The position numbers and the translations under genes are program-made. 56,737 nucleotides of DNA from Psammoneis japonica (lineage: Eukaryota): positions 615,598 through 672,334 of the forward strand of contig QPGO01000028.1 of NCBI GenBank assembly GCA_008632985.1. The letters run 5' to 3'. How positions within the stretch are numbered: position 1 is the stretch's first letter; every line of letters starts with the position of its first letter. The notes below the pieces were generated by a model, which was not told the origin of the DNA, made no database searches, and saw nothing but the letters and a program-made list of their open reading frames with translations. Shown piece by piece: positions 6,409 to 56,737 of the stretch.

Positions 6409-7666
6409 AGCAGTTGGCAATTGTGTGCAGCATGTTCGTTCTTTATGTGCATTTTTTCACGAGGAAACACAAGCCCGGCAACTCGTAAAAGAGACTTGAA
6501 ACTTCTCTGGGTAGACAGGAGATTCATTGCCAAGGGGGGAATCGTCGATGCAGGTTCTTAAACGTGCACCAAGCCCTGCCCTGGCAGAGACAACACAGGG
6601 AGCACATCTCTGAAGAAGCTGCTGTAATTTAGAACACAACTCGTGACAGATGCTCCCCTTGTTGTTGTAGACGCGAGGGAATCAGGCCTTTGCCACATTT
6701 TCCCTGCGATCCCGCACGCATTCTAAATTGCACCGGACATGCAGTGTCTTAAAACCTTGGGCTGTTGTGGCTTTTCGCTCTCAGCCAGATGGCTTGGATG
6801 AGGCATTTGCGAACTGGCATGAGAATCTTCTGTGAGTCTTGAGTGATTCAAAATTCAGGTGTGCCAGTGAAGGCCAGGTGGCAAGCAGTTTGTCAGTGTT
6901 GAAGAAGAGTTGGGCTGCCCTGGTTTAGGGTGTGAGTTTGCAGTGGCTGGAACTTCTTGCTTTCAGTTTTTTGTGCAAGGGGACATGGAAGGGAGTCACA
7001 GTCACGATTGGGTGGGCATTGGAAAATTTTGAGGGGTCAATGCTGAGGCTGGAGCATGGGCTGAGAAGTGTCTGGTGGCAGCTGCAGAGCCAGCAGGTGC
7101 ACACTTGGTGTTGCCATCATGGATTGGAAAACCTTGTTGCTTTGGAGCTCCTGGGTTTGAGCTTGGGAGGAATGCTGGCTGTTGTTTGGTTGGTGTTGAG
7201 GTTGCTCCTGCACAATTTTCACTTGGAGCTGAAACAGGCAGGCCTGCTGAGCTTGCCAAGTCTTGGTTGGCAGGTGACAAATGTCCAGCAAAAGTGGGAC
7301 AAGACCATTTTGTGTGGATGTCCATCTTCTCAAGTCGCCAGCTTGATGGCAACAATGCGGCCCCAAGTGTTGGCCTTCTGTGGTGCTCATTGAGACAATG
7401 AGACTTGAGCAGCAAGCAACTCACTTGAATTATCCATTTGTGAAAAGCACTGGCCTTGATCTGACAACCCCAAAACACGGACAGTGTTTGTCCATTTTCT
7501 CAGCATTTTGTGAAGCTGTTTCTCAACCAGGTCATTGTCAACAGCATCCGCAGCTTTCAATGTCAGCATTGTGCTCTCACACACATGCACCACACAGTTG
7601 TGAGTTGGCACTGAGCCTGGGCCAAGCTTTTGCCTTGCATCATCTTGGGTGACACACCCCCTGGAA

Positions 7667-8232
7667 GACGTGTTCCAGCCGCACGTGACCCAAATCGTGC
7701 ACAAAAACGACATTTGCGCGATTTTTGCGCGGTCTCTGACTTACGAACGGTTTTTCACCACCAAAAGTATAGATTTATTCAAATTCTAATGTTTTGCAAC
7801 ACTAACAAGACTCGTGTGAGTGTTGCAAAATCATTGTTATTGTGCCATCAATGTTTTTCATTGCGATAAACGAATCGTAACACAACGGATGATTTTCGGC
7901 GAAATTATTGCCGTTATTTGGATGTTAACTAAATATATCTTTCTACGATGGTATTTAGTATATTTGCTACTTACAAAGAAATTTACGTATAAAAAGTACG
8001 GACGTACAATCAGTATTGAGTCTACTGAGGAAGTTTATGATACATATCCCATGAGGAATTTGATACCCCACAAAAAACTATTTAATTCTTCATAATTATT
8101 CACACTCTAGACGCCTATAAAAGCCAATCCGTTTAAGTATTTTATATGAAAATACTTCATACACTAATATATACATGCCTTATATTCAAAATCGATTGTC
8201 GTTTTGTGTGTCACCTGGGACTGGAACACGTC
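7667..8232. mobile_element. Non-autonomous DNA transposon (MITE), 566 bp
   Basis: Perfect 12-bp TIR gacgtgttccag / ctggaacacgtc, extending to 23 bp with 3 mismatches. 4-bp TSD GGAA at 7663-7666 and 8233-8236. AT-rich non-coding interior. Confidence 0.85.
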
Positions 8233-8606
8233 GGAACTCTGTCAAATGATGCATCAATTCAAGAGTCTCTCTTTTTCTTGATGCCAAGCTGTGGTGTGTT
8301 GCCCTTGTTTTTGAGTTGTGTGATAAAAGGGAGTCACCTTGCAGCTTGGGTCTGGCTGGGTGCATGGATTGTCTTGTCACAGGGTGCTCATGTCTTGTGT
8401 TTGTCCTTTTTGGAGGCTGCCAAATTCTCTTGTGAATGACGGTGGCAAATGACAGTGTTGCTCAACTTGGGCTCTGTCATGTGCACTTGGGATTTCTTGG
8501 ACTTTGCAGTGCATGCTTCCCTTTTTTGTTTCCTTGGATCTGATTTCAGCTGCTGATGTCTTCCTTGCCATCTCTGATTTGCCCTTGAAAAAGATGGCAG
8601 CTGTGC

Positions 8607-8882
8607 TGACAGAAATTGAAGGCAAATGGCAAGAATTCAAACAACAACTCCTCACTGCTGTCTAAACAGCAGATGAGTCTCCGCTCAGAGACCGTCACAG
8701 GAGCCGAAAGACGTGTGAGTCGGCACAATCGGGCTACTGTCATCATTCTTGTGAGCCTTGTGGCTCGAAAGCAAACTACATCGCGCGTGAACGCGCGGAA
8801 CTAAAGCACACAAAACTGTGCGCGGTAAACTAAACAGTGCGCGATGCTTCATGCGCATCCAAATCCTGTTCAAATCCTGTCA
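8607..8882 (-). repeat. 3' LTR of family A copy 1
   Basis: Direct repeat of 15444-15719. I count 14 differences, all transitions. Confidence 0.95.
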
Positions 8883-11800
8883 CTCCCCAGTTTGCTTGAG
8901 GAGCCACAGAAACAGATTCGACTTCGGATGGAATGAAGTTCCAGAACATGAGGGGGCGGAGAAGGTCCCAGATTTGGGAGTGACCCCAATGCTTGCTGAG
9001 AATGTCAGCAGGGTTGCGGGAGCCTTCGATGAAGTGGAACTCAAGGTGACCAGAGGCAATTGCCTCACGCACACGGTGGAACGATGGTGTGGTGTGTCGC
9101 TTGTGTAACTTGGAGTGCGGGATGGTGGCACTGTCTACAACCGACTTGTTGTCACCGAACATGTAACCAATGTTACGGATCGGGACGCCAAGGCAGCGCA
9201 GGGTGATGCGCAGGTCGACAATCTGCTCAACACAAGTCCTTGCGGCAACAAATTCAGACCCGCAGGTTGCAGTCTCCACGGTGGCTTGTTTCTTAGAGAA
9301 CCAATCAGCCGGGAATTTGTTGAGGAAGTGGAGCATTCCCATGACAGAGCGTCCGGTGAGCATGCAATGGTGCAAGTTTGCATCGACGCAGTGGGTGGCA
9401 GTGACGAACTTGCCAAGGGGCGGTGGAGCGTCCTTCGGGATCATCTCTTCTGCTTCACCACACACGGAATGCATCCATTCATGGGCCGGAGCAGGGAGAT
9501 CCGAACAGTCGGGCTCTTCCGTGCGAACGCAGAGAGCACCGTGTCGCATCTTGGAGAGGCACCCACAGACGCGTTTGGCACGGTCCAAGTGGCCTTGACG
9601 GGGTGCAGCTCGGAAGCTAGAGAGTGACATGATGGCCGTGGCAATGTCAATTCGACCAAGGGACACTGCCCATTGGAGTGAACCAACAAGAGACTGGAAC
9701 TTGTGAATGCCATCGGGTCCCAGCAGTTCGGAAGTGTCCAGTTCGGGGTGGTCACCCTTCTCCAGAGGTGACAGGGTGTTGGTGGCAGGTTTCTCCCCAA
9801 ACAGTCGGGCATGGCTGTCGACCATGCGCTCGATGTACTTGCGCGGAGACAGGCACAAGGTTCCGTCGGGTTCCCGGGAAAAGTCGCAACCCAGATGGAA
9901 CTCAATGGGTCCCGCACCCTTGAGCTTGAACTTGTGATTTTCCGTGAGAGTGTCGACGAAAGATTGAGGGTCCTTCATGGCAATGGCGAGGTCATCCACA
10001 TAAACGGCAATGCACCCACAGTGGTCGCCGTTCCTGCGCATCCAAATGTCGGGTTCGGCGCGGCAGGGGAAGAAGCCTTCAGCTCGCAGGCAGTCGGCGA
10101 AGCGCTCGTGCCAGCGGAGACCGGAGCTGCGCAGTCCATGCAGTGCCTTGTGGATGACAAGGATGTGTCCTTCGAGTTTGCCGAACTCGGGTCCAGCTAC
10201 AATGTAAAGCTTCTCCTTGGTGGTGGCTTCAAGGCAGGCATTGCCAATGTCGGTGGCCCATGTCTCCAACTCGTTGAGTTCGGCCAGGAAAATCATCAGC
10301 CGAAGGCCACGGAGGGAGACTGCTCCGGAGTGGACACTGTCGACAGGTGCGTCCGTGAGGTGCCTGTCGGCTACGAGTCGTGCCTTGTGGCGACCGTCGT
10401 GTTTCACGTCGTACACTGGGTGCACTCGGATCTTCTTGTGTCCCGCAGGAGGAGTGGAAGACTTGAAGGGCCCGCAGTCATGGAAGACTTCGCATTCGTC
10501 GAGTTGGTCCATCTCGAGATTAGTTGTGTCTCCCCACTTGCGGTTGCCGTTGCGTTCGTCTAGTGACATGGCGTGTTCGTAGTTCCGGGGAACTTCGCAT
10601 CCATGCTTGCAGCGAGGTGCAGTGCGGAAGGAGCGAAGCTTGGCTTGGTTGGCCATGCGAAATAGCTTCTTTTGGCGCCTCGCGATGGTGCGGAACCGCT
10701 TCCAGCCATCCGTGTCGAGGAGTCCGTTCTCTCGTGCATAGATGGCACAGGTGACGGGGTCGTCCTTGGCGATGATGGCAAGAGGCTCGGACGTGATCTC
10801 CCCACTTTCCCATTCAAGCATGATGTTGTAGCTGGAGCCTTTCCAGGTTGGGTCGTGAGGCTTCAGAGGTCCTTCGTGCGACACGATGCGTCGAAATTTC
10901 CAAACAGTGGCATCTTCGTCTTCTTGCTCAATGTGATTCATGATGTCATTGCAGGCAAGGACTTCCTCGTATTCGTCATTGTTGACAGAGCAGACGAACT
11001 CAGTGAGCTCGGGATTGCCGTTCACTTTCCATTCGTGGTCTTCGACGGCCTTGACGATGCGAGCTCTGTGGCGTTGTCCGTCCTCTTGTGGCTGCATGAG
11101 GAAGGTACGTCCAATGATGTCTTGCGGATCGAAAACTGGCATCTTGGGTGTCCTGATCTCCCCATCAGGAGAGTCGACAGGGTTGTCGTCATGGCGAGAT
11201 TTGATGATGGGTTCAGGTGGCTCCCCATCAGGAGGATCAAGACGCAGGTTTCGAGCGGCAGGATCGGGGGTAGCGGAGCGGACGTTGGACCGGCGGAGGA
11301 TCTTCTGAGTCTCGTCAGATAGAATCTTGAAGGTCATCTGGTGGCCGACGTGCTCAGCAATGCCAACGAAGCGCCCACGCAACTCACGGGATTCGGACGG
11401 CCAATCGGAGTCATCGAGGTGGAAGCACACGGGTTCCCACCAATGAAAGCGAAGCAACGGGCTGATGTCCGGGGTGGAGCCAGTGAGAGTCTCGAGGGGC
11501 GTGCGCCAGTGGAGACGTGGGGACGCTGCATGGTTGAGCATGAAGCACACGCACATGAGCACCAGCAGCCATGTGTGGGCGGGCGAACCAAAACGATCCA
11601 TGACAGTGTTCGCCATGCGCTTCACGGTCTGGTGTCGACATTCGGCAAAGTTTTGGTGTTGCTGGTGAGGCTCACTTTGCCAGCTAGAGATGAAGAGGGC
11701 GCGCAGGATCCCGAGCACTTTGTTGCTGATCTCAACTTGAGCACGGTCGCTAATGAGTTTGGATGGGGCACCACGTTCACGGATCTGATCCTCGAGTGTG

Positions 11801-14502
11801 TTGACAAACTCTTTGTCCGTCTCAGTGCCGCAGACGTCAGTGACGGTAGACTCGGTGCCAACAAACAGTTGGGCGCTGGTGCAACCAGAGTCGACGGCCG
11901 GGGTGTCGGCACAAATGGTGTCAGTGGCGACAGGCTCGTTGCGGCGGTGCACATTAAGGGCGGGGTTGGGTGATTTGCAGGCCTTGCGAAGGTGTGTGCC
12001 GGCGGGCATGCGGGCGTACTGCGTGGTGCAGTCAAAAGTACGACGGACCGCATCGGTGGGTAAGAAGCCAAAGCAAGGCCGAAGAGACTCGAAGGGGGGG
12101 TCCTTGGGCTGTGCAGTGCGCTCCGGAGGTGGAACGTCGTCGCCCTGGGGGCCAATCGCATGCAGATGACACTCGTAGAACACGTCGTCGTTCGGAATGA
12201 GGTGATCATCGAGGGCGGACGCGTGATCGGCAGACAAGGAAGCGGACATGATGGTCTCGTTGACAACGACACGATGACGGCAGTTGCCGCATTCGTCAAA
12301 CAGGTTGGCAGTGGGATCGTCCTGCAGGTCAGAGATCGCATCGTGCCACTGGTCGTCGTCAGTGACAGAGTGATCGAGGACGGAAGGGTCCCATGTGTCA
12401 TCACCGGTGAGGATGACATGGGGCAGGGTGTCCCATTCGGCGTCAGTGTAAGGTCGCATGGCAACACAAGGCAGGCCAGCCTTGATGTCAATGGGGATGA
12501 CACAGCCATCAGGAGTGGCAATGCGTTGCAAGCCGTTGGGCACCTTGACAGAGCGATCGTTGACATCCTGTTTGCACCATTCGAGCTGGCCGCAGGAATG
12601 GATGGTCTTGCCCTTTCCCGTGCATGCGCACTGATGGAGGATGGCGATGACGGGACCACGCTGGGTCTCAACAACGGCACCAGCGGTGACAATGGGGATG
12701 TCCACCAATTGATGATTGTCAATGCCCTGAACGTCGACTTGGCGAGAGGTGCGTGCAATGACGCAAACGTCGTCGCCAGCAATGCCGCCGTTGGCCCCAC
12801 GATCGACTAGAGCACCAGTGCGTGTGGAGCGATGAGCAGAGGCAGAGTGAATGACATTGTGGTTGTCAACGCGGCGGCAAGTGCGGCCGTTGAGTTCCAT
12901 GTCATCTGCAGAAGCTGGCGGGGTAGAGGAAGCGGCGGATGGCCCCGGTTGACTGGCATTGTGGGCTTGGTTAGGAGACAACAGACGTTGCAGATCACCG
13001 GGTGGCAGTGGCTTGCGCTTGGTGAGGTGCGCCAGGATGGGATCATCCGAAGTGGCGTCCACATGTGGAGCGGAGTCACCAGAGTCAGCAGGAGTCGTGT
13101 TGGACAAGTTGACATCACCGTCACTCCCAAGGCGTTGGTCGTGAAGGTTGGCCGTAACAGACTCATGGCAGTCACTGGCTCGCGGGTTGCGGGGAGGTGG
13201 ACGACGAGAATGCTCAAGGATGATCGCCTTGGAGGAATCGGGCAACGAATCCCAGAGCTGTTGGTGGTCGGGAGGGAGACGTCTCCATTGGACACCGGTG
13301 AGGCTGGGACCGCGGGTGCAGGCAGCATTGGCCTGAAGGACGTCAACGTCGCTGTCAATGTCGCAGAACACATCGTCGGACGGTTCCTCGGAGTGGACGT
13401 CATGTGCGCACATGGCGCGTCGGGGAGCTCGAGGTGTTGTCTTGGGTTGAAACGTGCTGTCGTGCTGAGCTGCTGCGGAGAGGAGCAAGCCACAGCATTG
13501 ATTGCATGTGAGGCTCTTGCCACTCTGTGCACGATGCTGATCAGCTTGGTTCTTGACAGCACGGAGTTCCTCGACAGGGTGCACGGCATTCTCGAGCATG
13601 ACGCGCTTCTGTCCTTCAGAGAAGTGGTCACTGGCCGGGATGAGTGCCTCGCACTTGCGCAACTGATCTTGCCAATGAAGGATGAACCCGTGGGTCGGAC
13701 CTTTCCAAGTGCCATCACCAAGACGAGCGGTGGTCAGGTGCGTGAGCAGGGTGGAGGACTCGACAGATGCACGGGTGGAGGCAAGCGCGCACTCAGACAA
13801 GGAGCGGCAGACGGTCTGTGCGTCAGAAGACCCCACATTTTCGCGAATGAGAGCCTTGCCCTTGTCGGTGAGAAGGATGCGTTCGAAGACGGCGAACATG
13901 TGCTTTTGCTGTTCAGCAAAGAGCAGTTTGTCTTCGGGGCTGGTCGGTTTGTACGACGAGTCTAGAATGCACTCGACGTCTTGGGCACGGGCTTGTGCCA
14001 CAAGTGAGGTGTGCCAAGTGTGCCACTGCTTGTCGGATTTGAGAGCCGTGAAAGCGGTGGGATCACGCTTGATGCCTCGCTTGAAGTCCCGCACCGGGTC
14101 GCGTGCCTTGGTCGGGTTGGTGACATGTGGAGGTGCAAGGGGTGAGCTGCCGATGGACACAGAAGACATGTGGTCGGGGCTGAGGCGGCAGGCAAGGAAC
14201 TCGTCATGCATGAACAAAGAGGAGTCGTTGGCAACGTCAAGACCTTTGTGTGCTTTGACAATGCACAGACTGACCAGTGCTGCCAACATGTTCTTATAAC
14301 CACGGGGCAAAGGGATTGCATCAGTGCCGTTGTCGCACTCAAGCGAGTCGATTTGGGACGGCATGAACGTGAATGGTTCCTGATGCGAGTCCGTGCCGTC
14401 TTGGGCCAAAGCCAAACGAAGAGGACTCCCAGCACCTTGGGCAAGCACGGTTCCAACCACGTGCTCGAAACCATCGGTTTGTTGCTGACGAGTGAGAACC
14501 AT
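8830..14502 (-). CDS. Copia Gag-Pol polyprotein; frame open but hypermutated, probably non-functional
   Basis: Protease LVDRGANGG; integrase VATDT, LISDRA, SEPHQQHQNFAE; RT KARLVA and YVDD; RNase H DNKS and NPADILSK. Many normally conserved Tyr are Cys or His (DIGNAC, KALHGL, TATCGSE). Confidence 0.93.
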   Translation of the reverse strand: MVLTRQQQTDGFEHVVGTVLAQGAGSPLRLALAQDGTDSHQEPFTFMPSQIDSLECDNGTDAIPLPRGYKNMLAALVSLCIVKAHKGLDVANDSSLFMHDEFLACRLSPDHMSSVSIGSSPLAPPHVTNPTKARDPVRDFKRGIKRDPTAFTALKSDKQWHTWHTSLVAQARAQDVECILDSSYKPTSPEDKLLFAEQQKHMFAVFERILLTDKGKALIRENVGSSDAQTVCRSLSECALASTRASVESSTLLTHLTTARLGDGTWKGPTHGFILHWQDQLRKCEALIPASDHFSEGQKRVMLENAVHPVEELRAVKNQADQHRAQSGKSLTCNQCCGLLLSAAAQHDSTFQPKTTPRAPRRAMCAHDVHSEEPSDDVFCDIDSDVDVLQANAACTRGPSLTGVQWRRLPPDHQQLWDSLPDSSKAIILEHSRRPPPRNPRASDCHESVTANLHDQRLGSDGDVNLSNTTPADSGDSAPHVDATSDDPILAHLTKRKPLPPGDLQRLLSPNQAHNASQPGPSAASSTPPASADDMELNGRTCRRVDNHNVIHSASAHRSTRTGALVDRGANGGIAGDDVCVIARTSRQVDVQGIDNHQLVDIPIVTAGAVVETQRGPVIAILHQCACTGKGKTIHSCGQLEWCKQDVNDRSVKVPNGLQRIATPDGCVIPIDIKAGLPCVAMRPYTDAEWDTLPHVILTGDDTWDPSVLDHSVTDDDQWHDAISDLQDDPTANLFDECGNCRHRVVVNETIMSASLSADHASALDDHLIPNDDVFYECHLHAIGPQGDDVPPPERTAQPKDPPFESLRPCFGFLPTDAVRRTFDCTTQYARMPAGTHLRKACKSPNPALNVHRRNEPVATDTICADTPAVDSGCTSAQLFVGTESTVTDVCGTETDKEFVNTLEDQIRERGAPSKLISDRAQVEISNKVLGILRALFISSWQSEPHQQHQNFAECRHQTVKRMANTVMDRFGSPAHTWLLVLMCVCFMLNHAASPRLHWRTPLETLTGSTPDISPLLRFHWWEPVCFHLDDSDWPSESRELRGRFVGIAEHVGHQMTFKILSDETQKILRRSNVRSATPDPAARNLRLDPPDGEPPEPIIKSRHDDNPVDSPDGEIRTPKMPVFDPQDIIGRTFLMQPQEDGQRHRARIVKAVEDHEWKVNGNPELTEFVCSVNNDEYEEVLACNDIMNHIEQEDEDATVWKFRRIVSHEGPLKPHDPTWKGSSYNIMLEWESGEITSEPLAIIAKDDPVTCAIYARENGLLDTDGWKRFRTIARRQKKLFRMANQAKLRSFRTAPRCKHGCEVPRNYEHAMSLDERNGNRKWGDTTNLEMDQLDECEVFHDCGPFKSSTPPAGHKKIRVHPVYDVKHDGRHKARLVADRHLTDAPVDSVHSGAVSLRGLRLMIFLAELNELETWATDIGNACLEATTKEKLYIVAGPEFGKLEGHILVIHKALHGLRSSGLRWHERFADCLRAEGFFPCRAEPDIWMRRNGDHCGCIAVYVDDLAIAMKDPQSFVDTLTENHKFKLKGAGPIEFHLGCDFSREPDGTLCLSPRKYIERMVDSHARLFGEKPATNTLSPLEKGDHPELDTSELLGPDGIHKFQSLVGSLQWAVSLGRIDIATAIMSLSSFRAAPRQGHLDRAKRVCGCLSKMRHGALCVRTEEPDCSDLPAPAHEWMHSVCGEAEEMIPKDAPPPLGKFVTATHCVDANLHHCMLTGRSVMGMLHFLNKFPADWFSKKQATVETATCGSEFVAARTCVEQIVDLRITLRCLGVPIRNIGYMFGDNKSVVDSATIPHSKLHKRHTTPSFHRVREAIASGHLEFHFIEGSRNPADILSKHWGHSQIWDLLRPLMFWNFIPSEVESVSVAPQANWGVTGFEQDLDAHEASRTV

Positions 14503-15443
14503 GGTGGACAAAAGTGGTGTCAGGACAGTCAATTCTGGTTGGGAAGAGAAGGTAGACTCGAAACTTGGGTGAGAGTGGACTTGACTTGAAATGGACTTGA
14601 CTTGAAATCTTGAACCATCTTAAAATCAGAAGTCGCCGGGCTTTGTCATCCCGTTCGTTGTCAAGTGCTAAACTTCCCATCCGGTCCGTAGAGTTGTGCC
14701 GGCACGTCCGAACCCGCAGCTGGCGGCGCTTTGGGTTGCTTGCGAGCGGAGCAGCGGGTTGTAAACCCCTGCAGGCAAGCTGACCAGAGGTGGACAAGAC
14801 CCCCGAACCGTTCTTATTTTGTGTCGGTTGGATTTCCCGATCAGGCTGGCCAGTTGACGCTGGCGTCAGGCGCTGTGGACGAACGAACAAACGTGGGAAA
14901 GCACCCTCGCCCCAACGCAGGCTGCAATCACGGCTGCTTGCTCTCACAGTTGTCCTCGTGGACCTAGCAGAACTGTAGAGCACCAGCAGTCCGGGGTAGA
15001 TCAGGTACAATGGACTCGGTGTGCCTGTAGAGTGGTGGCAAAACCGCAGTCCGAAGAGTGGGTACAGGTTCTTGGCCGTGAAGATATGTATATATATATA
15101 TATGTCTTCAGCGACGAAGATCCTTGAATATGTAGGGTTCTTGACCGTTAACCGATGAATGGGTATATCAAGGGATGAGGATCAAGGATAGACTTGGATA
15201 TGACCGTTGAATGTATGTCTTCAGCGGTCAAAGGTAGTATAATCAATCCAGATATCCAGCGGTAAGGAGACTTGACGGTGACGTTAACTTCCTGCCGATG
15301 CCCTGGTGTCGAATGCGCGTAGACTTGCCGATGTATGTAGAACATATACGGAGGTCCACGTAGAATTGAAATAGCGTCGTTGGTAAATCAACGACGACGA
15401 TGGCGGTTGCTCAATGGGTTGACAATGAGCAAGACTGTTAATC

Positions 15444-15719
15444 TGACAGAAATTGAAGGCAAATGGCAAGAATTCAAACAATAACTCCTTGCTGCTGTCT
15501 AAACAGCAGATGAGTCTCCGCTCAGAGACCGTTGCAGGAGCCGAAAGACGTGTGAGTCGGTACAATCGGGCCACTGTTGCCACTCTTGTGAGCCTTGTGG
15601 CTCGAAAGCAAACTACATCGCGCGTGAACGCGCGGAACTAAAGCACACAAAACTGTGCGCGGTAAACTAAACAGCGCGCGATGCTTCGCGCGCATCCAAA
15701 TCCTGTTCAAATCCTGTCA
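15444..15719 (-). repeat. 5' LTR of family A copy 1
   Basis: Direct repeat of 8607-8882 and inverted match to 54535-54810. Confidence 0.95.
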
Positions 15720-26200: not shown

Positions 26201-26575
26201 TGCACAAACTCGATCTTTCGTTGCTGCTGATGCTGTTGTGTTGTTGAAGCCAGTTTGGGCCGATCCTTCATTGCCATGGCGGCTGCAGAAGGAACAGAGA
26301 GGGCTGGCGTGGCCACCTCCATTCTTGATCACGACTTCAGTGACATTCAGGATGCAACCTTCCAGAACCAAATTTCCAAACACATTGCCGCAGCGGAGAA
26401 CCCTGAAGATGCGACCACCGTGCAGCACTGGGCGGAGATGAAAGTCCACAAAACGTCCAGTGCAAATGAGAAAGAGGAAACGGTGGAGTTTCGAGGCACC
26501 CGTCTTGTTCTGATTGCGGCCATTGAACAAGCCAAGTTGGATGCCAACTTCTTGCTCAATTTTCAAACCTCCATT

Positions 26576-39707: not shown

Positions 39708-40384
39708 GATGCCGAAAATGCTGGGTTGCATCCTCGCTTTCACAAAAGGCTCGCAATAAAATGAATGGACTTTTGGCGGCAAGAGAGTCAACAGAGAAAA
39801 CGTAAAACGGCTTTTCGATGCAAAAGTAAAGTGAGTGTCGAAGTCTCACCATTCCACGTGGGAGTATCATTGTTATTGTTCAGTCCCGGATCGCCGAAAG
39901 CGTGTCGACGTCGCTAAATGTTTGCTCGTGAATCGCCATTAAAGACAGAAAAAATGCTCTGTTGATAGTGTATGATATAAATATTCATTATTCTCGGACA
40001 TAATATATTAATATTGTGACTGAATATGTGTAAAATCTTTTTGTCATAATGTCCTTAACGTCTCCGAACGATACAGAATCAGAACGCAAATGCGAATTTT
40101 TTTGATTTTTCAATATATCCTTAGATTCGTATATTTTACAATGAGAACAGCATCCAATGCATTGAATACGATGTATATATGGATGTAATTGTAAAAGTAT
40201 TAAAGAACGCTTACAACATTAGCGTTTCCCGCAATTTTTCGAAAACAGCAGCAGGCAGTCTGCGTCCCTTGACACGAGAAAAATAGCCACTGTCACTTAC
40301 AGCGGCATTAGGCATAACAGCAAGCGACTTTGTTATCCTTTAGTGTGTTACTTAGACAGGTTTGCATGTGTTACACATTGTTTG

Positions 40385-48499: not shown

Positions 48500-50900
48500 T
48501 CTACAAGTCCGTCACAGCACAGCCAGCCACAGAGAAGTGCACAAATCATCTGTTGTCATCTGCGCACACATGCTTCCGCATGCAGTGCACGCAGTGCAGA
48601 CAACAACAGAGATGATTTGCGCAACTCTGCCAGCCTGCCCTCCCGCCCAGCCTTCTGCAGGGCCAGCATTGACGTCAACACATGCAGCCAGCCATCAGCC
48701 CCAGGATTCAGCCCAGTCAGTCTGAGTGGCTGAGCCTGAGAGTGGCACATGCCAGCAGCGCAAACAAACGAGCACATGCTCAACTCTTTTGGGGTGCAGG
48801 CGCCATTGCAGTCATCACTGTTGGTCATGAGTTCTCCAGTCAAGAGATGGCAGAAATTTGCACTGGGATCTCCAAACAACCCAGATGCTGGTGTGGCTGT
48901 TGTTGAATGTCACACACAGCGCAAGCCCTCCCTTTTGCTGAGTCTGTCTTTGCAGCGTGTTGCAGTCACTGGTTGATTCAGCCAGTGCTCCTGGCCCAAG
49001 AAGTTGACACAAAAAACCCACAGTTGCCTTTCCCCCAGGACCCCACTAGGGCCACCTGTTGCCAGCAGTTTGGGGGTGTGGTTCTCACCCCATTGGCAGA
49101 ATGGTTCACAGGCAAACACTCCTCACCCATTGGCCAATGACAGCTCTCACTTGCAACCTCTCCTGCTGCTGCTTTTGGCCCTCCTGCTCCATGACATCTG
49201 GCACAAACAAAAGGTCTGGAGATGATGTGGAGCTTGCCACCCAGCAGGTGAGTGAGGATGCATTTGGCATGACAGTGCTTGCAAGGAGCACTGACTTCTG
49301 CTGTGTGCAAAGGTGCGCTGTTGTTGTGCTTTTTCTGTTCATGGCATCTTTGATGCCCCCATTTTTCTCTTCCTCAGACTGTGCAGCAAGATTCTTCACA
49401 CAAATTGCTTTTGTCTCCATTGACTTGCTGACACCAGAGAGGAACAAAGACACACATGCACACATCTTTGTGGCATGCTGGCACCCTTGTGTTTGTGTGC
49501 TGAATCTGCCATTGCAAAGTCAGTGCAAAAGTGTGCATGAATGATTGACTTTTTGGGCCACACTGGGGCACAGGCATGTCCGTCACACAGACTTTGTGTG
49601 GCAAGATTGCTGGAAAAGTGACCCCCTCCTGGCTGGTCTTTGCACCCTGCCACATCCAAAGCAAAAACTTTTTTTCACCTGTGGCCTCTGAGCAACGAAA
49701 ACAATGGCCAGCAGTTCAAAAATGAGCAGATCACAGGAAAGAAAGCTGCAAAAAACTGGGAAAAGTTTGCTTGAAATTGCTTGCACACAAGGTGTGCCAT
49801 GGCGTGCAACAATGGAAGAGAAGGACAGAAGCAACATCCAACCTCAGCATGTGCACTTCTCACCTTGGACAAAAACACATCTTGCTCACGCAACAAAGGT
49901 GTGCTCTGAGAGATGTCAGCTCCACTTTCAACAAATGACACCCCCCTGCTGCTGCTCTGCTGCTGCTGCTGCTGCTGCATGATGCTGAGCTTTGCCCTGC
50001 ATTGCCCCTTTTTTCTTTGGCAACAAGAGGAAATTTGTTGTTGACTGGAAGAGCAGCACCAATGCAGACTGTGACTCTCTCATGTGCATCATGTTGCAGC
50101 TCAAGCAGGGGGGGTAAAAGTCTTACAAACATTTGTCGCAATCTCAAGTTTGGGTCATCAGCAGGATGATTCATCACTTGCAGCTCTCATGGGGATGAAA
50201 GCAATCATGATGGACATTGTCCTTTCTCACCACCTGGCGGACAGATGGCAACAAATCAATGAAACAAGCAGCAAGGCATGGGTGAGAAGGCAGTTTTGTG
50301 CAACACAAGCTCATCGTAACTGCTGTCATTGAGTGACACAGCAACACAGGAGAGCAGGACATGTCTCATTTTCAAAGATAGCAGCATGGCTCATCCTCTT
50401 CAACCAACAAAGGCAAATCCTGTGGTGTCTGGGAGCAAAGAAGAAAGGGCCATCACCAGCGAGTGATGGTCAAATGGCAGGGGGGCAAGTGCTGCAGTGT
50501 AAAGTGACATGGTTGATCACTTGCTTCATGCCCTCATGACATGCACACAACATCCCTGCCAATTTTCTTTAGGGAGTCAGCCAACCTGTGCAAGGTCTGT
50601 GTGTGATGGATGCCCCCAAATGAAGGTGGAAATTGGAAACAGCATCTGCATCAGGTGGACTGTGCTCACCCTGGTCGGCACAACTAAATGGGATGAACTC
50701 GGTGGGACAGGGCGACCATGATCGCGTTTGAAATGGAAGGTCGAGTGTTGCAGGGTTGTGCTGTGTTGGATTGAAATGAAACATGGCTACAATGTAAACG
50801 GGTTTTGTTCTTCTGACAAACCTCGATTTTGAACACTGCTCGGCATGTTTTCAAGAGAAGACAACACCAGGTTGTTGTGCTTGTGCTAGCTGCTTGCTTT
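48500..50900. other. TpA/CpG-depleted hypermutated block between two intact genes; origin not recognised
   Basis: TA and CG nearly absent. Normal composition resumes around the stop codon at 50928. Confidence 0.75.
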
Positions 50901-52466: not shown

Positions 52467-54534
52467 TCTCACGACTCCAACACAGCGAAAACAGTGCAGT
52501 CGTCAGAGATTCAATGATATGGTCAGTGTATTCTAGAGTGATCCTTTTTACGTGGGAGGAGATAAAATTCCGTCGATAGATTGAGGGATGAAACCTCCAA
52601 AACAACATCAAATCAAGAATCACAATGTGATCTCGACGCATTGCGCACCCCACGGCGACGGCTGGCAGGCGCTCGAATTTCAAAAAAGAGCGCGCTGCCG
52701 TTATTGCCGTTACTTTTTTTCAAAAAAAGTGATCAAAAAAGTGAAGTGCCGAACGGATTTTCAAAATCTTTCCAAGAGAGAAACTGTGTCTCTTTGTGTC
52801 CTCAACAGAACATTATTTTTGGGTGACCATTGTGGAGAGATGGAAGCAAGACACATCTGCCATGGAAATGGAAATGCGCCAGCAAGGCAGGGCTGTTTCA
52901 CACACACTTGGCGCTTGCCTCTTTTGTTGTTGCGACACTTCTTCTTTCTTCAGCAGCTTGCTCCTCAAAGTGACGGGTTGGTTGACAGACCAGGTTCTTT
53001 GCTGACACAGGTGTTGATGGATGACCACATGGCAAAAATCCAACCAGGTGTTCTGATCAAACACTCCATGCCCTGGGCATCTTGTCCTTTAAAAAGTCCT
53101 GGGTGCCCTTGTTTTGCATCCCACAGAGAGCCTGGCCGGCATGCCAGGTTCAGGCACGTGATTGCTTGGCTTTTCTGTTTTTTTTGCCACAGCCCTTGAC
53201 AAAACCAATGGCTTCTCTGTTTCTACACAGAGAAGGTGAAACAAATGGGCCAAAGATGGCGGCAGCTGCCTGTGAAATGATGACAAAGCTTGACATTTCG
53301 ATGACGTGCCACTTTCAACTCTGGGACAGCTCCACAATGCTGGCAGGAGTTTCAAGTTGTTGCTGCTCACCAAGCTCCCTGTCACACTTCCAGAATCAGG
53401 AATTTGCTGAGGAACCACCTCTGAGAAATTCCACAAAGAATCTGGGTGACATGCCAAGGCCATGAAGAGCAGGTCGGTTGTTCTTTGTGGGGCTGGGGTG
53501 GCGAGCAACGAGTTTCTTTGTTTTGTGGGCTGGGGTGGGGAGCAAGAAAGAATTGGTCATCAACAAGTCTGGTGTGTTCAAATGGAGAAATCAAACAGAG
53601 AAATTTCAGCAACAGATTTGGCACTTTCTGGTGTGGTCAAAAATTTTGTTTAACTGCGGTGGCTGCCAGTGTGTGTGTGAAAAAAGTTGAAGCTGTTGCA
53701 GCACCAGCACTTTCCCTTTTGTTCATTTGACACCAGGCACAATGTTTTTGTGACTGACAATGTGTCATCGTGTCATGTTGTGAGTGGCATCATCAGCCAT
53801 TGTGTGGCACTGCCATCTGACATGCTTTTGCTCAGAATCACATCCTGGCATCATGCTTTTTTTGACCAGTCAGTGGCCAGGAGCCCCACACCCTGGCATC
53901 AAATGTCTCAACCAATTGGCAATCAGGACTTGCACCCAGCATTGGAAATCCTGATGGGCTGCTGTGCATGATTCCATGCACAAACGCAATTCAGCTGCTG
54001 GAGAGGCGTTTCGATTACAGCAAACCTTGCGGCTAACTCTGAGACTGCCATGGGTCCCAACCCAATCCAAACTGGCGTGGCAGTCGTGCTCCTGACAAGC
54101 GCAGTGCAGACCATCACCGCGGTGCTGTCGATCGCATCGATCGCTGTCGCAAGGAATTTGATCAAATCTCGCACCAACGATGATGATTGTTGCAATGCTG
54201 CGAAAGTCATCTAATCTTCATTTCTGCAAGAACGCACTTGACACATTGTCAATCAGCATCTGTTTGATGGGAATCTAAACACGTTCTTCACAATTTTGAT
54301 CATGTCACGTGCCGATTCTGCATCCACCACCCATGCCGCCGAATTTTTGGCAACCATGCTGTCAAAATGGTGTTGTCAATGTGCCAAAGTCTCATCACTT
54401 GTTGTCTCACTCAACTGTTGTGCAGACAGAGCCAGCTCACACTGTCAATCCTCATGTGAGAGCTCATCGACAAATCCAATGTCGCAGTCACGTTGTCAAA
54501 TGCGTTTTGGCAACGCCAATGACAAGAGAAACAT

Positions 54535-54810
54535 TGACAGGATTTGAACAGGATTTGGGTGCGCGCGAAATGTCGCACGCTGTTTAGTTTGCCGCACACA
54601 GTTTTGTGTGCTTTAGTTCCACGCGTTCGCGCGTGATGCAGTTTGCTTTCGAGCCACAAGGCTCACAAGAATGACAACAGCAGCCCGATTGTGCCGACTT
54701 GCACGTCTTTCGGCTCCTGTGACGGTCTCTGAGCGGAGACTCATCTGCCATTTAGACAGCAGCAAGGAGTCATTGTTTGAATTCTTGCCATTTGCCTTCA
54801 ATTTCTGTCA
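54535..54810 (+). repeat. 5' LTR of family A copy 2
   Basis: 276-bp TG...CA sequence matching both LTRs of copy 1. Confidence 0.95.
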
Positions 54811-55758
54811 GATTGACAGTCTTGCTCATTGTCAACCCATTGAGCAACCGCCATCGTCGTCGTTGATTTGCCAACGACGCCACCTCAATTCCACGTGGAC
54901 CTCCGTGTGTGTTCTACATACATCGGCAAGTCTACGCGCATTCAACACCAGGGCATCGGCAGGAAGTTAACGTCACCGTAAAGTCTCCTTGCCGCTGGAT
55001 GTCTGGATTGATCACACCACCTTTGATCGCTGAAGACACACATTCAACGGTCACATCCAAGTCCATCCTTGATCCTCATCCCTTGACATGCTTGTTCATC
55101 GGTTGACGGTCAAGAACCCCACATGTTCAAGGATCTTCGTCGCTGAAGCCGTGTGCATGTGTGCACATCTTCACGGCCAAGAACCTGCACCCACTCTTCG
55201 GACTGCGGTTTTGCTGCCACTCTGCAAGCACACCGAGTCCATTGCACCTGATCTGCCCCGGACTGCTGGTGCTCTGCAGTTCCACTGGGTCCACGAGGAC
55301 GACTGTGAGAGCAAGCAGCCGTGACTGCAGCCTGCGTTGGGGCGAGGGTGCTTTCCCGCGTTTGTTCGTTCGTCCACAGCGCCTGATGCCTGCGTCAACT
55401 GGCCAGCCTGATCGGGAAATCCAACCGACACAAAATGAGAACGGTTCGGGGGTCTTGTCCACCTCCAGTCAGCTTGCCTGCAGGGGTTTGCAACCCGCTG
55501 CTCCGCTCGCAAGCAACCCAAAGCGCCGCTGGCTGCGGGTTCGGACGTGCCGGCACAACTCTGCGGACCGGATGGGAAGTTTAGCACTTGACAACGAACG
55601 GGACAGCAAAGCCCGGCGACTTCTGATTTTAAGACAGTTCAAGATTTCAAGTCAAGTCCATTTCAAGTCAAGTCTGTTCTCACCCAAGTTTCAAGTCCAC
55701 CTTCACCACCTTCGCTTCCCAACAAGAATTGCTTGTCCTGACACCACTTTTGTCTGCC

Positions 55759-56737
55759 ATGGTTCTCACTCGTCAGCAACAAACCGATGGTTTCGAGCAC
55801 GTTGTTGGAACCGTGCTTGCCCAAGGTGCTGGGAGCCCTCTTTGTTTGGCTTTGACCCAAGACGGCACGGACTCGCATCAAGAACTGTTCACGTTCACAC
55901 CATCCCAGATCGATTCGCTTGAGTGCGACAACGGCACTGATGTGATCCCTTTGCCCCACGGTTGTAAGAACATGTCAGCAGCTCTAATTAGTCTGCACAT
56001 TGTCAAAGCACACGAAGGTCTTGACGTTGCCAATGACTCCTCGTTGTTCACGCATGACGAGTTCCTTGCCTGCCGCCTCAGCCCCGACTGCATGTCTTCT
56101 GTGTCCGTCGGCAGCTCGCCCCTCGCACCTCCGCATGTCACCAACCCGACCAAGGCACGCGACCCGGTGCGAGACTTCAAGCGAGGCATCAAGCGTGACC
56201 CCACCGCTTTCACGGCTCTCAAATCCAACAAGCAGTGGCACACTTGGCACACCTCACTTGTGGCACAAGCCCGTGCCCAAGACGTCGAGTGCATTCTAGA
56301 CTCGTCGTACAAACCGACCAGCCCCGAAGACAAACTGCTCTTTGCTGAACAGCAAAAGTGCATGTTCGCCATCTTCGAACGCATTCTTCTCACCGACAAG
56401 GGCAAGGCTCTCATTCGCGAAAATGTGGGGTCTTCTGACGCCCAGACCGTCTGCCGCACCTTGTCTGAGCATGCGCTTGCCTCCACCCGCGCATCTGTCG
56501 AGTCCTCCACCTTGCTCACGTACCTTGCCACCGCACGTCTTGGTGATGGCACTTGGAAAGGTCCGACCCACGGGTTCATCCTTCATTGGCAAGATCAGTT
56601 GCGCAAGTGCGAGGCACTTGTCCCCGCCAGTGACCACTTCTCTGAAGGACAGAAGCGCGTCATGCTTGAGAATGCCGCACACCCTGTCGAGGAACTCTGT
56701 GCTGTCAAGAACCAAGCTGATCAGCATCGTGCGCAGA
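55759..56737 (+). CDS. Copia Gag (partial, runs off the window), hypermutated
   Basis: MVLTRQQQTDGFEHVVGTVLAQ... and DFKRGIKRDP, same as copy 1. Confidence 0.88.
   Translation, partial: MVLTRQQQTDGFEHVVGTVLAQGAGSPLCLALTQDGTDSHQELFTFTPSQIDSLECDNGTDVIPLPHGCKNMSAALISLHIVKAHEGLDVANDSSLFTHDEFLACRLSPDCMSSVSVGSSPLAPPHVTNPTKARDPVRDFKRGIKRDPTAFTALKSNKQWHTWHTSLVAQARAQDVECILDSSYKPTSPEDKLLFAEQQKCMFAIFERILLTDKGKALIRENVGSSDAQTVCRTLSEHALASTRASVESSTLLTYLATARLGDGTWKGPTHGFILHWQDQLRKCEALVPASDHFSEGQKRVMLENAAHPVEELCAVKNQADQHRAQ

What the first reader, a model, noticed from the sequence alone, without database searches (positions are those of the whole stretch)
6420..56737. Candidate genome-defence system: repeat-directed TpA to TpG/CpA hypermutation (RIP in reverse)
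Seen: four domains (~6.4-16.5, 21.1-39.7, 48.5-50.9, 52.8-56.7 kb) have lost nearly all TA while neighbouring genes have not. Aligned copies show TA replaced by TG or CA, and conserved Tyr codons in retroelement and host proteins become Cys (TGY) or His (CAY). Known: fungal RIP and 5mC decay are C>T processes and cannot remove TA; RIP creates it. Inference: an activity causing A>G on both DNA strands at TpA is aimed at repeat-rich chromatin. Candidates are a DNA adenine deaminase (TadA-derived editors prefer TA), a modified adenine or thymine that miscodes, or error-prone polymerase eta-type synthesis (WA motif). I know of no described pathway for this but could not check the literature.
Basis: partly seen in the sequence, partly recalled or inferred. 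Interest (0 to 1): 0.95.

Follow-up and report, generated by a model that had tools for sequence, protein, structure and literature searches.

The report
TpA-erasing hypermutation of diatom transposons
In this piece of a diatom chromosome, blocks of transposons and dead genes have had almost every TA step rewritten to TG or CA, the footprint of a DNA-mutating defence that has so far been caught in action only in one unrelated alga.

Summary
Four blocks (about 6.5-16.5, 21-39.75, 48.5-50.75 and 52.75-56.7 kb) hold 5.3 TA per kb against 40.2 per kb in the genes between them. The edges are sharp to within 250 bp.

Polarised tests show TA was ancestral. In a Copia polyprotein, 31 of 41 conserved Tyr codons are now Cys (TGY) or His (CAY), while 52 of 57 conserved Arg are kept. 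A>G hits TA (22/41) but not AA, GA or CA (4/199). Part of the change came after integration: the two LTRs of one insertion differ mainly at inferred TA sites, and three LTR copies show TA/CA/TG at the same position. CpG decay is a separate, slower layer seen only in the older blocks.

The window comes from a raphid-pennate-type diatom. A 2026 preprint recorded exactly this TpA>TpG/CpA hypermutation live in mutation-accumulation lines of the chlorarachniophyte Bigelowiella natans. Eight literature searches found no report for diatoms.

My verdict is a genuine second lineage of a very recently described process. The enzyme is unknown; a TadA/ADAT-like DNA adenine deaminase is the favoured candidate. 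"Repeat-directed" is not shown.

The parts
6500..16500 (.). TA-depleted block 1: an old TA- and CpG-poor sequence with Copia1 inserted in it
   Evidence: 250-bp TA counts are 0-6 against 7-27 in the genes; 1-kb O/E 0.07-0.44.
8607..15719 (-). Copia1, a full-length Ty1/Copia LTR retrotransposon. LTRs lie at 8607-8882 and 15444-15719. The 5-bp target-site duplication TGTGC lies at 8602-6 and 15720-4. The 1900-codon ORF is 8830-14532.
   Evidence: Self-BLAST; sequence reading; RVT_2 E=3e-24. Tyr makes up 0.74% against 3.87% in 40 homologues. Of 41 conserved Tyr, 22 are Cys, 9 His, 3 Phe and 7 kept.
14960..15719 (-). Unconverted patch of Copia1 (5' LTR and the first part of the leader), which keeps its TAs, including a (TA)n microsatellite
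   Evidence: TA counts of 22, 13 and 5 per 250 bp. The same stretch in Copia3 is converted: of 36 TA sites, 18 are CA, 14 TG, 4 TA and 0 CG.
7740..8240 (.). TA-rich, AT-rich island inside block 1; a multi-copy sequence, probably a later insertion
   Evidence: 51 TA in 500 bp. X1, X3 and X4 contigs of about 91% identity lie on it.
21000..39750 (.). TA-depleted block 2: old TA+CpG-free DNA, Copia2, a 171-bp tandem array, a DNMT-like pseudogene and a hypermutated host-like gene
26576..32711 (-). Copia2, a second and unrelated Copia lineage with broken frames. LTRs lie at 26576-26933 and 32354-32711 (89.9% identical). The RT ORF is 27994-28815.
   Evidence: Against 83 homologues, the 6 conserved Tyr columns read 3 Cys, 2 His and 1 kept, and Ile>Met (ATG) occurs in 2 of 3. 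The LTR pair has 12 aligned CA/TG dinucleotides.
27767..28162 (.). MITE-like insertion with about 25-bp terminal inverted repeats inside Copia2; TA-rich and unconverted
33737..34802 (.). 171-bp tandem array, free of TA and CpG. Its units differ by CA/TG flips, and one position reads CA, TG and TA in different units.
34943..35865 (+). Decayed C5 cytosine DNA methyltransferase-like gene in two frames
   Evidence: PF00145 E=1.6e-6 and 3.3e-7; frames shown.
38664..39791 (-). Hypermutated non-transposon gene (signal-peptide-like start, Cys-rich protein) inside block 2, with normal CpG
   Evidence: Its single homologue is P0391 (48% identity). The 17 Tyr of P0391 align to 7 Cys, 3 His, 2 Tyr, 2 Phe, 1 Gln, 1 Lys and 1 Asn.
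48500..50750 (.). TA- and CpG-depleted block 3; no recognisable domain
52750..56737 (.). TA-depleted block 4: old DNA (52.75-54.5 kb) plus Copia3, which is cut by the window end
54535..56737 (+). Copia3, a second copy of the Copia1 family (LTR 54535-54811, leader, start of the polyprotein). It is 92.3% identical to 13524-15719.

Best explanation
A DNA-level mutational process in this diatom converts TpA to TpG or CpA. That is A:T>G:C at the A of TpA on either strand, with one hit per site. It acts within delimited blocks of transposons, tandem repeats and pseudogenes. It acts in place after integration, and much faster than CpG decay, until almost no TA is left. It has the same signature as the hypermutation measured live in Bigelowiella natans.

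Shown here: direction, TpA specificity, use of both strands, action after integration, sharp block edges, and independence from CpG decay.

Inferred: the chemistry. I favour enzymatic deamination of adenine to hypoxanthine by a TadA/ADAT-type deaminase brought to silenced chromatin. I put that at about 0.5 on its own. tRNA A34 deaminases naturally act on a U-A step (recalled), and a TpA palindrome offers a target on each strand that is destroyed by the first hit.

Also inferred: that it serves as a genome defence. What marks a block for attack (repetition, small RNA or chromatin) is unknown.
For: Polarity from proteins. In 736 columns conserved in at least 80% of 40 Copia homologues, Tyr is changed in 34 of 41 (22 Cys TGY, 9 His CAY). 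All other residues are changed in 60 of 695 (Fisher p=1e-26). Arg is kept in 52 of 57.

Context at codon position 2. A>G occurs at TA in 22/41, AA in 1/60, GA in 3/91 and CA in 0/48 (p=3e-16).

Copy against copy. Where Copia1 keeps TA (14960-15442), Copia3 has 18 CA, 14 TG, 4 TA and 0 CG at 36 sites. A>G occurs at TA in 14/37 against 3/98 elsewhere. T>C occurs at TA in 18/36 against 3/84 elsewhere. A (TA)n microsatellite has become a TG/CA mosaic.

After integration. The two LTRs of Copia1 (target-site duplication intact) differ at 14 of 276 positions, all transitions. By my reading, 9 are at inferred TA sites and 3 at CpG. Two positions read TA, CA and TG across the three LTR copies.

Budget. 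The sum TA+CG+TG+CA per kb is constant at 239.5, 246.4 and 235.3. In the Copia elements the TG+CA gain (+33.3) equals the TA loss (-33.0), with CpG unchanged.

Native composition excluded. 0 of 79 related Copia loci have TA O/E below 0.49. 0 of 1505 1-kb windows are below 0.34. All 120 homologues have 2.9-5.0% Tyr.

Independent replicates. Copia2, a host-like gene and a tandem array.

Family-level reads. At 5 sites in GTAA, TTAG, GTAG, TTAC or CTAG context, 39-80% of the family's contig depth carries the state that differs from this copy; at four of them that state is TA where this copy has TG or CA, and at the fifth this copy keeps TA.

Precedent. In B. natans lines, 230 of 231 mutations in two viral inserts were A>G or T>C, all of them at TpA (preprint Results).
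Against: No enzyme, modified base or chromatin mark could be examined, because no genome is held. The deaminase is therefore a guess resting on substrate logic.

Targeting is unexplained. TA-rich multi-copy inserts sit untouched inside converted DNA, and the same sequence is converted in Copia3 but not in Copia1.

At five sites this copy has TG where 81-99.9% of the family depth has CA. Either strong site-specific strand preference or amplification of already mutated copies could cause this. If the latter, part of the load was inherited and not acquired in place.

Tyr>Cys exceeds Tyr>His (27 to 13, p=0.04). This strand bias is unexplained.

All read support comes from one sample, probably the source of the assembly.
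Confidence: 0.78

Rival explanations
1. The target is the same, but the thymine is attacked instead of the adenine. A TET/JBP-type hydroxylase would make 5-hydroxymethyluracil (or a base-J-like derivative) at TpA in silenced DNA. Mispairing or faulty repair would then give T>C.
For: T>C at TpA on one strand cannot be told from A>G on the other, so all sequence evidence fits equally. From memory: in dinoflagellates 5hmU is enriched at TpA, and in kinetoplastids base J sits at T-A steps of telomere repeats.
Against: From memory: 5hmU pairs with A and is only weakly mutagenic towards C, so near-complete conversion would be surprising. No such enzyme could be searched for here, because no genome is held.
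Confidence: 0.1
2. RNA editing before integration. An ADAR-like enzyme edits retrotransposon RNA at UA, and reverse transcription fixes the changes.
For: ADARs prefer a 5' U (stated in the preprint Discussion). Sense-strand A>G is about twice as common as antisense at Tyr codons (27 to 13).
Against: Both strands are hit and interleaved, with no strand runs. The two LTRs of one insertion differ. Non-retroelement DNA is affected: a tandem array, a host-like gene and a DNMT-like pseudogene. In B. natans, single-copy silent viral DNA mutates in asexual lines.
Confidence: 0.03
3. Ordinary 5mC deamination at CpG, combined with a natively TA-poor transposon composition.
For: CpG O/E is 0.06-0.3 in the older sub-blocks, where about half of the TG/CA gain comes from lost CpG.
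Against: The Copia elements keep CpG (60.4/kb against 53.8/kb in genes) yet have lost TA (7.2 against 40.2). Arg is kept in 52 of 57 columns while Tyr is lost in 34 of 41. No related Copia locus is TA-poor.
Confidence: 0.02
4. A sequencing or assembly artefact, for example systematic miscalls at a modified base in heterochromatin.
For: All read data come from one sample of one study. The platform is not on record.
Against: Contigs built separately by Logan from run X1 match the TA-free stretches with 0-2 differences per 0.4-2.7 kb. Miscalls on both strands would also create CG, but 0 of 36 sites read CG. Copy-specific TA/CA/TG states at the same position are reproducible. The same signature was called from Illumina data in B. 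natans.
Confidence: 0.03
5. Error-prone repair synthesis (polymerase-eta-type, WA motif) concentrated in heterochromatin.
For: It gives A>G at TA, and it could be regional.
Against: A WA motif predicts that AA is hit as well. The observed rates are AA 1/60 and 2/32 against TA 22/41 and 14/37. The process is almost purely transitional (145 of 159 differences between Copia1 and Copia3).
Confidence: 0.03

Closest known systems
TpA-specific hypermutation of integrated giant-virus and virophage DNA in Bigelowiella natans (Mettrop et al., bioRxiv 10.64898/2026.01.13.699255; abstract, Results and Discussion read)
   Same: Changes are exclusively A>G/T>C, only at TpA, giving TpG or CpA. The process is confined to delimited regions of selfish or foreign DNA next to normal genes. 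It leaves a long-term footprint of TpA-poor, CpA+TpG-rich 1-kb clusters in which reverse-transcriptase and DDE domains are enriched.
   Different: The host is a diatom (Stramenopiles), not a chlorarachniophyte (Rhizaria). The evidence here is a footprint, not a measured rate. Conversion is near-saturating (O/E 0.0-0.2, against 0.45 for their virus insert). The targets documented here are LTR retrotransposons, a tandem array and a host-like gene. A flank preference is visible (ATAT and ATAC/GTAT sites are gone; CTAA, CTAG and TTAA sites survive best). A separate CpG-decay layer is present.
Repeat-induced point mutation (RIP) of Neurospora and other fungi
   Same: Transition-only hypermutation of transposons in place, bound to a dinucleotide context, regional with sharp edges, and inactivating copies.
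   Different: The chemistry is opposite: RIP is C>T at CpA and creates TpA, while this process destroys TpA and raises GC (0.54 in the Copia elements against 0.47 in genes). It makes no stop codons, so dead copies keep long ORFs. Dependence on duplication and on meiosis was not shown here.
CpG decay through 5-methylcytosine deamination on methylated diatom transposons (DNMT5-dependent methylation; PMC9998398, passages read)
   Same: It also yields TG/CA, and it is present in the older sub-blocks.
   Different: It cannot remove TA. It is slower here: between Copia1 and Copia3, 2 of 54 C or G positions within CpG differ in the stretch where 32 of 36 TA sites are converted.
ADAR hyperediting and APOBEC editing of retroelements
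   Same: Deaminase-driven hypermutation of selfish elements. ADAR favours a 5' U.
   Different: Those act on RNA or on single-stranded cDNA and mark one strand before integration. Here both strands are marked, after integration, and non-retro DNA is included.
Engineered adenine base editors derived from TadA (recalled; no paper read)
   Same: A>G in DNA through inosine, with a preference for T before the edited A.
   Different: Those are laboratory constructs guided by Cas9. No natural chromatin-directed DNA adenine deaminase is established.

Membership tests
B. natans-type TpA hypermutation | Changes are almost only A>G and T>C | tested here: met
   145 of 159 differences between Copia1 and Copia3 are transitions. 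In the polarised stretch, 32 of 45 transition differences are TA>TG/CA.
B. natans-type TpA hypermutation | Restricted to the TpA dinucleotide | tested here: met
   A>G at TA is 22/41 against 4/199 in AA, GA and CA. In the second test it is 14/37 against 3/98, and T>C is 18/36 against 3/84.
B. natans-type TpA hypermutation | Confined to delimited regions of selfish or foreign DNA beside genes with a normal spectrum | tested here: met
   Four blocks with edges no wider than 250 bp hold three Copia elements, a tandem array and pseudogenes.
B. natans-type TpA hypermutation | A directly measured, roughly 1000-fold raised and episodic mutation rate in cultured lines | not testable with these tools
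   This needs mutation-accumulation or pedigree sequencing. Only indirect support is available: the LTR pair differs at 14/276 while the flank on an empty-site contig differs at 0/396.
Fungal RIP | C>T/G>A transitions, mostly at CpA, that create TpA and lower GC | tested here: not met
   The direction is the reverse: Tyr>Cys/His, a (TA)n repeat turned into a TG/CA mosaic, and GC raised.
Fungal RIP | Triggered by sequence duplication above a length and identity threshold | tested here: inconclusive
   The Copia family is multi-copy, but the converted 21-26 kb DNA assembles as single contigs at gene-like depth. Short multi-copy inserts and a 414-bp tandem repeat inside a gene are spared.
5mC/CpG decay | CpG loss accounts for the TG/CA gain | tested here: not met
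   Not met for the Copia elements: CpG is 60.4/kb and TA loss equals TG+CA gain. It is met only as a second layer in the old sub-blocks.
ADAR/APOBEC editing before integration | Single-strand signature fixed at integration, so both LTRs are identical | tested here: not met
   Both outcomes are interleaved and the runs tests are not significant. The LTRs of one insertion differ at inferred TA sites.
Polymerase-eta WA-motif mutagenesis | A>G at both AA and TA | tested here: not met
   AA is hit at 1/60 and 2/32.

The most novel reading that the evidence does not exclude
Diatoms and chlorarachniophytes share an old, SAR-wide or wider genome-defence pathway. Its effector is a natural, chromatin-targeted DNA adenine deaminase that erases TpA from transposons and integrated viruses. 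It would be nature's own adenine base editor and the mirror image of fungal RIP. It should be identifiable by comparing gene content between species with and without the footprint.
Probability: 0.3. Interest if true: 0.92.

Novelty: new member of a known kind. Interest (0 to 1): 0.7.

Why it matters
Until 2026 no cellular pathway was known that hypermutates selfish DNA in the A:T>G:C direction. One preprint now shows it happening in a rhizarian alga, with no enzyme identified.

Finding the same footprint in a diatom has three consequences. (1) The process is not a peculiarity of one species, and may be ancient within SAR. (2) It points to a lineage with transformable, CRISPR-tractable model species in which the effector could be sought, if those species carry the footprint too. 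(3) It broadens the target range from integrated viruses to LTR retrotransposons, tandem repeats and neighbouring genes.

A natural DNA adenine deaminase, if that is the effector, would interest genome-editing work.

There is also a practical point. The process removes TAA and TAG and never creates stop codons. Dead copies therefore keep, and even gain, long ORFs that gene callers will annotate. Their LTR divergence will also greatly overstate insertion age.

Tried and rejected
No whole genome is held. Genome-wide profiles and a search for deaminase genes could therefore not be done.

Earlier scan notes gave nothing on this genome or sequence. A words search returned only unrelated phage cases.

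Sequencing runs: no RNA holder is listed. Run X2 behaves like RNA, with GT..AG joints at 17234-17359 and 17537-17617. It has contigs only on gene regions and none on 6.7-15.3 or 21.3-26 kb.

The X1 contig joining 8601 to 15720 (the exact pre-insertion site, 5 shared letters) has only 30 letters beyond the joint. That is one short of the tool's bridging criterion, so I treat a polymorphic Copia1 insertion as a hint only.

Summed contig depth over Copia1 (10^4-10^5, against 32-81 on most of the flanking bins) is not a copy number. I use it only to say the family is multi-copy.

Strand-run tests for processive single-strand action were not significant: p=0.12 for the best case, 0.46-0.95 for the others.

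I tried to separate a 5' from a 3' flank effect. Trinucleotide gains are confounded by the different native composition of the elements. Tyr-codon outcomes do not depend on the preceding base: 11:5 against 11:4, my split of the codon lists. The side that matters is unresolved.

The scan of metagenome contigs for other hypermutated Copia copies found 0 of 79 loci. The search patterns and the best-80 cut favour intact copies, so this serves as a control for native composition, not as evidence of absence elsewhere.

The consensus of the Copia1-lineage homologues did not hit Copia2, so a separate search was needed.

The DNMT-like fragment had no PDB match by sequence.

Pfam on 89 stop-to-stop frames of the old blocks gave only DNA_methylase, zf-MYND and sub-threshold noise, so the origin of the old blocks is unknown.

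Supplementary tables of the B. natans preprint are closed and were not seen. They may hold extended sequence contexts that bear on my flank-preference claim.

Full report
OBSERVATION. The window (56,737 bp, 49% G+C) has 1,177 TA and 2,488 CG dinucleotides. In 1-kb windows, TA observed/expected is 0.39-0.90 over the gene-bearing parts. It falls to 0.00-0.27 in four blocks, where TG and CA rise to 1.3-2.25. In 250-bp bins the transitions occupy a single bin. Examples are 39501-39750 with 1 TA followed by 13 and then 26, and 48251-48500 with 15 TA followed by 1. Pooled, the depleted parts hold 174 TA in 33,067 bp (O/E 0.09). The undepleted parts hold 859 in 21,353 bp (O/E 0.57); chi-square is 850.

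Two refinements are needed. First, CpG is also almost absent (O/E 0.06-0.3) at 21-25.5, 34-37.5, 49-50.5 and 53-54 kb, but is normal (about 0.9) in the Copia elements, whose G+C reaches 0.57-0.59. Second, the blocks contain TA-rich islands at 7740-8240, 14960-15719 and 27767-28162.

WHAT IS THERE. The best named relatives of the FKBP gene at 44014-44955 are diatoms (Fistulifera, Epithemia, Nitzschia, Cylindrotheca) at 42-53% identity. Unnamed hits reach 68%. Fistulifera is a raphid pennate of the Bacillariophyceae. The window is therefore diatom DNA and not Bigelowiella.

The blocks contain the following features.
- Copia1 (8607-15719, minus strand) has 276-bp LTRs and an intact TGTGC target-site duplication.
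- Copia2 (26576-32711) is an unrelated Copia lineage with broken frames.
- Copia3 (54535 to the window end) is 92.3% identical to Copia1.
- A 171-bp tandem array lies at 33737-34802.
- Fragments of a C5 DNA-methyltransferase-like gene and a zf-MYND frame are present.
- A gene for a secreted-looking Cys-rich protein lies at 38664-39791.
- Several kb have no recognisable domain: 89 frames were scanned.

Between the blocks lie ordinary genes: an FkbM methyltransferase, a MARVEL-like gene, an ankyrin gene, the FKBP gene and an AAA_16 STAND NTPase.

POLARITY. I aligned the 1,900-residue Copia1 ORF with 40 of the 84 full-length homologues (1800-2000 residues) among the 120 listed hits. Tyr makes up 0.74% of it, against 3.87% in the homologues. 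Cys is 3.11% against 0.92%, and His 4.89% against 3.57%. All 120 homologues have 2.9-5.0% Tyr.

In the 736 columns conserved in at least 80% of the homologues, 94 are changed in the window copy. Of 41 Tyr columns, 22 are Cys (all TGY), 9 are His (all CAY), 3 are Phe and 7 are kept. Of 57 Arg columns, 52 are kept and 3 are Cys (Tyr against all others, p=1e-26). The Cys and His excess therefore comes from TAY codons and not from CGY codons.

The same table gives a context control at codon position 2. A>G occurs at TA in 22/41, at AA in 1/60 (Asn plus Lys), at GA in 3/91 (Asp plus Glu) and at CA in 0/48 (His plus Gln); p=3e-16. At position 1, T>C occurs in 9/41 Tyr codons. No Phe>Leu, Trp>Arg, Cys>Arg or Ser>Pro change is seen.

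Copia2's RT frame, aligned with 83 of the 150 homologues returned (those covering residues 10-205), repeats the result. Of 6 Tyr columns, 3 are Cys, 2 are His and 1 is kept. Ile>Met (ATG) occurs in 2 of 3.

The non-transposon gene at 38664-39791 has one detectable homologue, P0391. The 17 aligned Tyr of P0391 face 7 Cys, 3 His, 2 Tyr, 2 Phe, 1 Gln, 1 Lys and 1 Asn. With a single homologue, polarity there is less secure.

NUCLEOTIDE-LEVEL TEST. Copia1 has kept its TAs in its 5' LTR and leader (14960-15719), while Copia3 has lost them in the same stretch. I took Copia1 as a stand-in for the ancestor over 14960-15442. Of its 36 TA sites, Copia3 has CA at 18, TG at 14, TA at 4 and CG at none. A>G occurs at TA in 14/37, against AA 2/32, CA 1/23 and GA 0/43. 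T>C occurs at TA in 18/36, against TT 0/19, TC 0/24 and TG 3/41 (p=6e-7 and 6e-9).

The opposite polarity would be a RIP-like CA/TG>TA change in Copia1. It is unlikely for two reasons. A perfect (TA)n microsatellite in Copia1 faces a TG/CA mosaic in Copia3, while 61 other CA/TG sites in the same stretch are unchanged. The protein data for the rest of the element are also unambiguous. The absence of CG products fits a process that needs an intact TpA and is ended by its first hit.

AFTER INTEGRATION, IN PLACE. LTRs are identical when an element integrates (established knowledge of LTR retrotransposition). Copia1's LTRs differ at 14 of 276 positions, all transitions. In the three-LTR alignment I read 9 of these as lying at inferred TA sites (CA against TG, or TA against CA), 3 at CpG and 2 elsewhere. 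At two positions the three LTRs read TA, CA and TG, and only an ancestral TA is one step from both derived states. Copia2's LTR pair has 36 differences, all transitions, including 12 aligned CA/TG dinucleotides. Units of the 171-bp tandem array differ by CA/TG flips, and one position reads CA, CA, TG, TG and TA in five units.

BUDGET. Transitions among TA, CG, TG and CA conserve their sum. The sum is 239.5/kb in genes, 246.4/kb in the Copia elements and 235.3/kb in the old sub-blocks. In the Copia elements TG+CA is up by 33.3/kb and TA is down by 33.0/kb, with CpG unchanged (60.4 against 53.8). In the old sub-blocks TG+CA is up by 78.5/kb, against losses of 37.8 (TA) and 44.9 (CG). Two layers are therefore present: a fast TA loss, and a slower CpG decay of the usual methylation type. 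Diatom transposons are CpG-methylated (PMC9998398, passages read).

CONTROLS. Native composition does not explain the pattern. The 79 related Copia loci from metagenome contigs have TA O/E of 0.49-1.02. None of their 1,505 1-kb windows is below 0.34.

Nor is it an artefact of this one assembly. Logan's contigs of run X1 lie on the TA-free stretches with 0-2 differing letters per 0.4-2.7 kb (records 1, 2, 3, 5-8). All four runs, however, come from one sample of one study, probably the source of the assembly.

The read table also gives a view of the whole Copia1 family. At 8717, 11823, 13395 and 14318 this copy has TG or CA where 39-80% of the family's depth has TA. At 14966 this copy keeps TA and 47.5% of the depth has TG. 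The contexts are GTAA, TTAG, GTAG, TTAC and CTAG. At 10412 this copy keeps TA where 85% has CA. At five sites this copy has TG where 81-99.9% has CA, with 0-13% TA by difference. Several CpG>TpG/CpA changes private to this copy are also visible (10527, 11916, 12340, 12765).

FINER FEATURES.
(a) Flanks matter. The density of surviving TA relative to the gene regions is 0 for ATAT (0 against 66), 0.009 for ATAC/GTAT and 0.06-0.09 for ATAG, ATAA and GTAC. It is 0.17-0.18 for CTAC and GTAA, 0.27 for TTAA, 0.35 for CTAG and 0.38 for CTAA/TTAG. By my arithmetic on those ratios, a simple additive model of the two flanks fits all ten classes. I could not decide which side of the edited base matters.
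(b) The two outcomes are interleaved, with no significant strand runs.
(c) At Tyr codons, sense-strand A>G outnumbers antisense 27 to 13 (p=0.04). This bias is unexplained.
(d) The process cannot create a stop codon inside an ORF, and it destroys TAA and TAG in all frames. The dead Copia1 therefore still has a 1,900-codon ORF, and the blocks are full of overlapping spurious ORFs.
(e) Conversion is patchy in tracts. The same 760 bp is untouched in Copia1 and 89% converted in Copia3. A 396-bp MITE-like insert with inverted ends (27767-28162) and a 500-bp multi-copy island (7740-8240) sit unconverted inside converted DNA.

TARGETING. The blocks are transposon-rich. However, the 21-26 kb part assembles into single contigs of up to 2.7 kb at gene-like depth (32-68, against 39-81 for the genes). 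A host-like gene is hit. A 138-bp x 3 tandem repeat inside a gene is not hit. Repetition as the trigger is therefore not shown. The data are compatible with episodic activity on silenced chromatin, or with guidance by small RNAs; both ideas are raised for B. natans.

One X1 contig joins 8601 to 15720 with five shared letters, which is the exact empty site of Copia1. Its 396 flank bases show no difference from the window. That would make the insertion polymorphic and its 5% LTR divergence very fast. Only 30 letters lie beyond the joint, so I treat this as a hint.

COMPARISON WITH WHAT IS KNOWN. Eight full-text searches found one relevant work: Mettrop et al., bioRxiv 10.64898/2026.01.13.699255. 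I read its abstract, Results and Discussion and searched its text for diatom terms, finding none. In 15 mutation-accumulation lines of B. natans, 231 of 302 nuclear point mutations fell in an integrated giant-virus region and a virophage region. Of those 231, 230 were A>G or T>C, all at TpA, at about 6e-7 per site per generation, and in only some lines. Genome-wide, the authors found 124 clusters of TpA-poor, CpA+TpG-rich windows, and reverse-transcriptase and DDE domains were enriched among TpA-poor coding sequences. They propose an ADAT2-like adenosine deaminase.

The window shows the same signature in a different supergroup-level lineage. No search found it described for diatoms. The library excludes most subscription journals, so an older mention could have been missed. 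The preprint's supplements were not available to me.

The process is the chemical opposite of fungal RIP. It is also distinct from CpG decay, from ADAR or APOBEC editing before integration, and from polymerase-eta WA mutagenesis (see the membership tests).

MECHANISM. The following are shown: A:T>G:C at TpA on either strand, one hit per site, in place, regional and near-saturating. The chemistry is inferred. I favour adenine deamination to hypoxanthine, which pairs with C, by a TadA/ADAT-type enzyme acting on DNA. My reasons are that these enzymes' natural site is A34 after the invariant U33 of tRNA (recalled), and that a palindromic TpA gives each strand one target. I put this at about 0.5. 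A thymine-modification route gets about 0.1. The remainder is spread over unknown chemistry and the rivals listed. Nothing in the window encodes a candidate enzyme: Pfam was run on 20 ORFs and 89 frames.

VERDICT. "Repeat-directed" is unproven, and "undescribed" is superseded by a 2026 preprint in another lineage. It is a new member of a very young kind and is of high interest to specialists.

Noticed in passing
window 34943-35865 (+): Two out-of-frame fragments of a C5 cytosine DNA methyltransferase (PF00145, E=1.6e-6 and 3.3e-7), with a recognisable QCQGFS stretch, lie decayed inside the TA- and CpG-free block. It is unclear whether this was a host DNMT paralogue or one carried by a mobile element.
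   Followed up: partly
window 32701-33141 (+): A zf-MYND frame (PF01753, E=2e-9) lies just outside the Copia2 LTR, in TA-depleted DNA. It has 11.4% Cys and no Tyr.
   Followed up: no
window 27767-28162: A 396-bp TA-rich insert with about 25-bp terminal inverted repeats (MITE-like) interrupts Copia2 and is not converted. Either it is very young or short elements escape the process.
   Followed up: partly
window 7740-8240: An AT-rich island with 51 TA in 500 bp sits between TA-free sequences. X1, X3 and X4 contigs of about 91% identity lie on it, so it is multi-copy yet unconverted.
   Followed up: partly
window 8601/15720: One X1 contig joins these two positions with 5 shared letters, which is the exact empty site of Copia1. 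This suggests the insertion is polymorphic or heterozygous in the sample. Only 30 letters lie beyond the joint.
   Followed up: partly
window 9000-14500, both strands: Loss of TAA and TAG leaves many long overlapping ORFs in several frames on both strands (for example 11622-12800 minus and 12832-13965 plus). These are spurious and would mislead gene callers.
   Followed up: yes
window 16785-17953 (+): Run X2, listed as 'DNA?', carries spliced contigs with GT..AG joints at 17234-17359 and 17537-17617. It is probably a transcriptome, and it gives the intron structure of the MARVEL-like gene.
   Followed up: no
window 21342-23342: X1 word depth here is about 32, roughly half that of the neighbouring genes (50-81). 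This part of the old block may exist on one haplotype only.
   Followed up: no
window 51922-52336, within ORF 50928-52472 (-): A 138-bp x 3 tandem repeat (93% matches) lies inside a 514-codon ORF of unknown family and has normal TA content. It is a repeat that the process has not touched.
   Followed up: no
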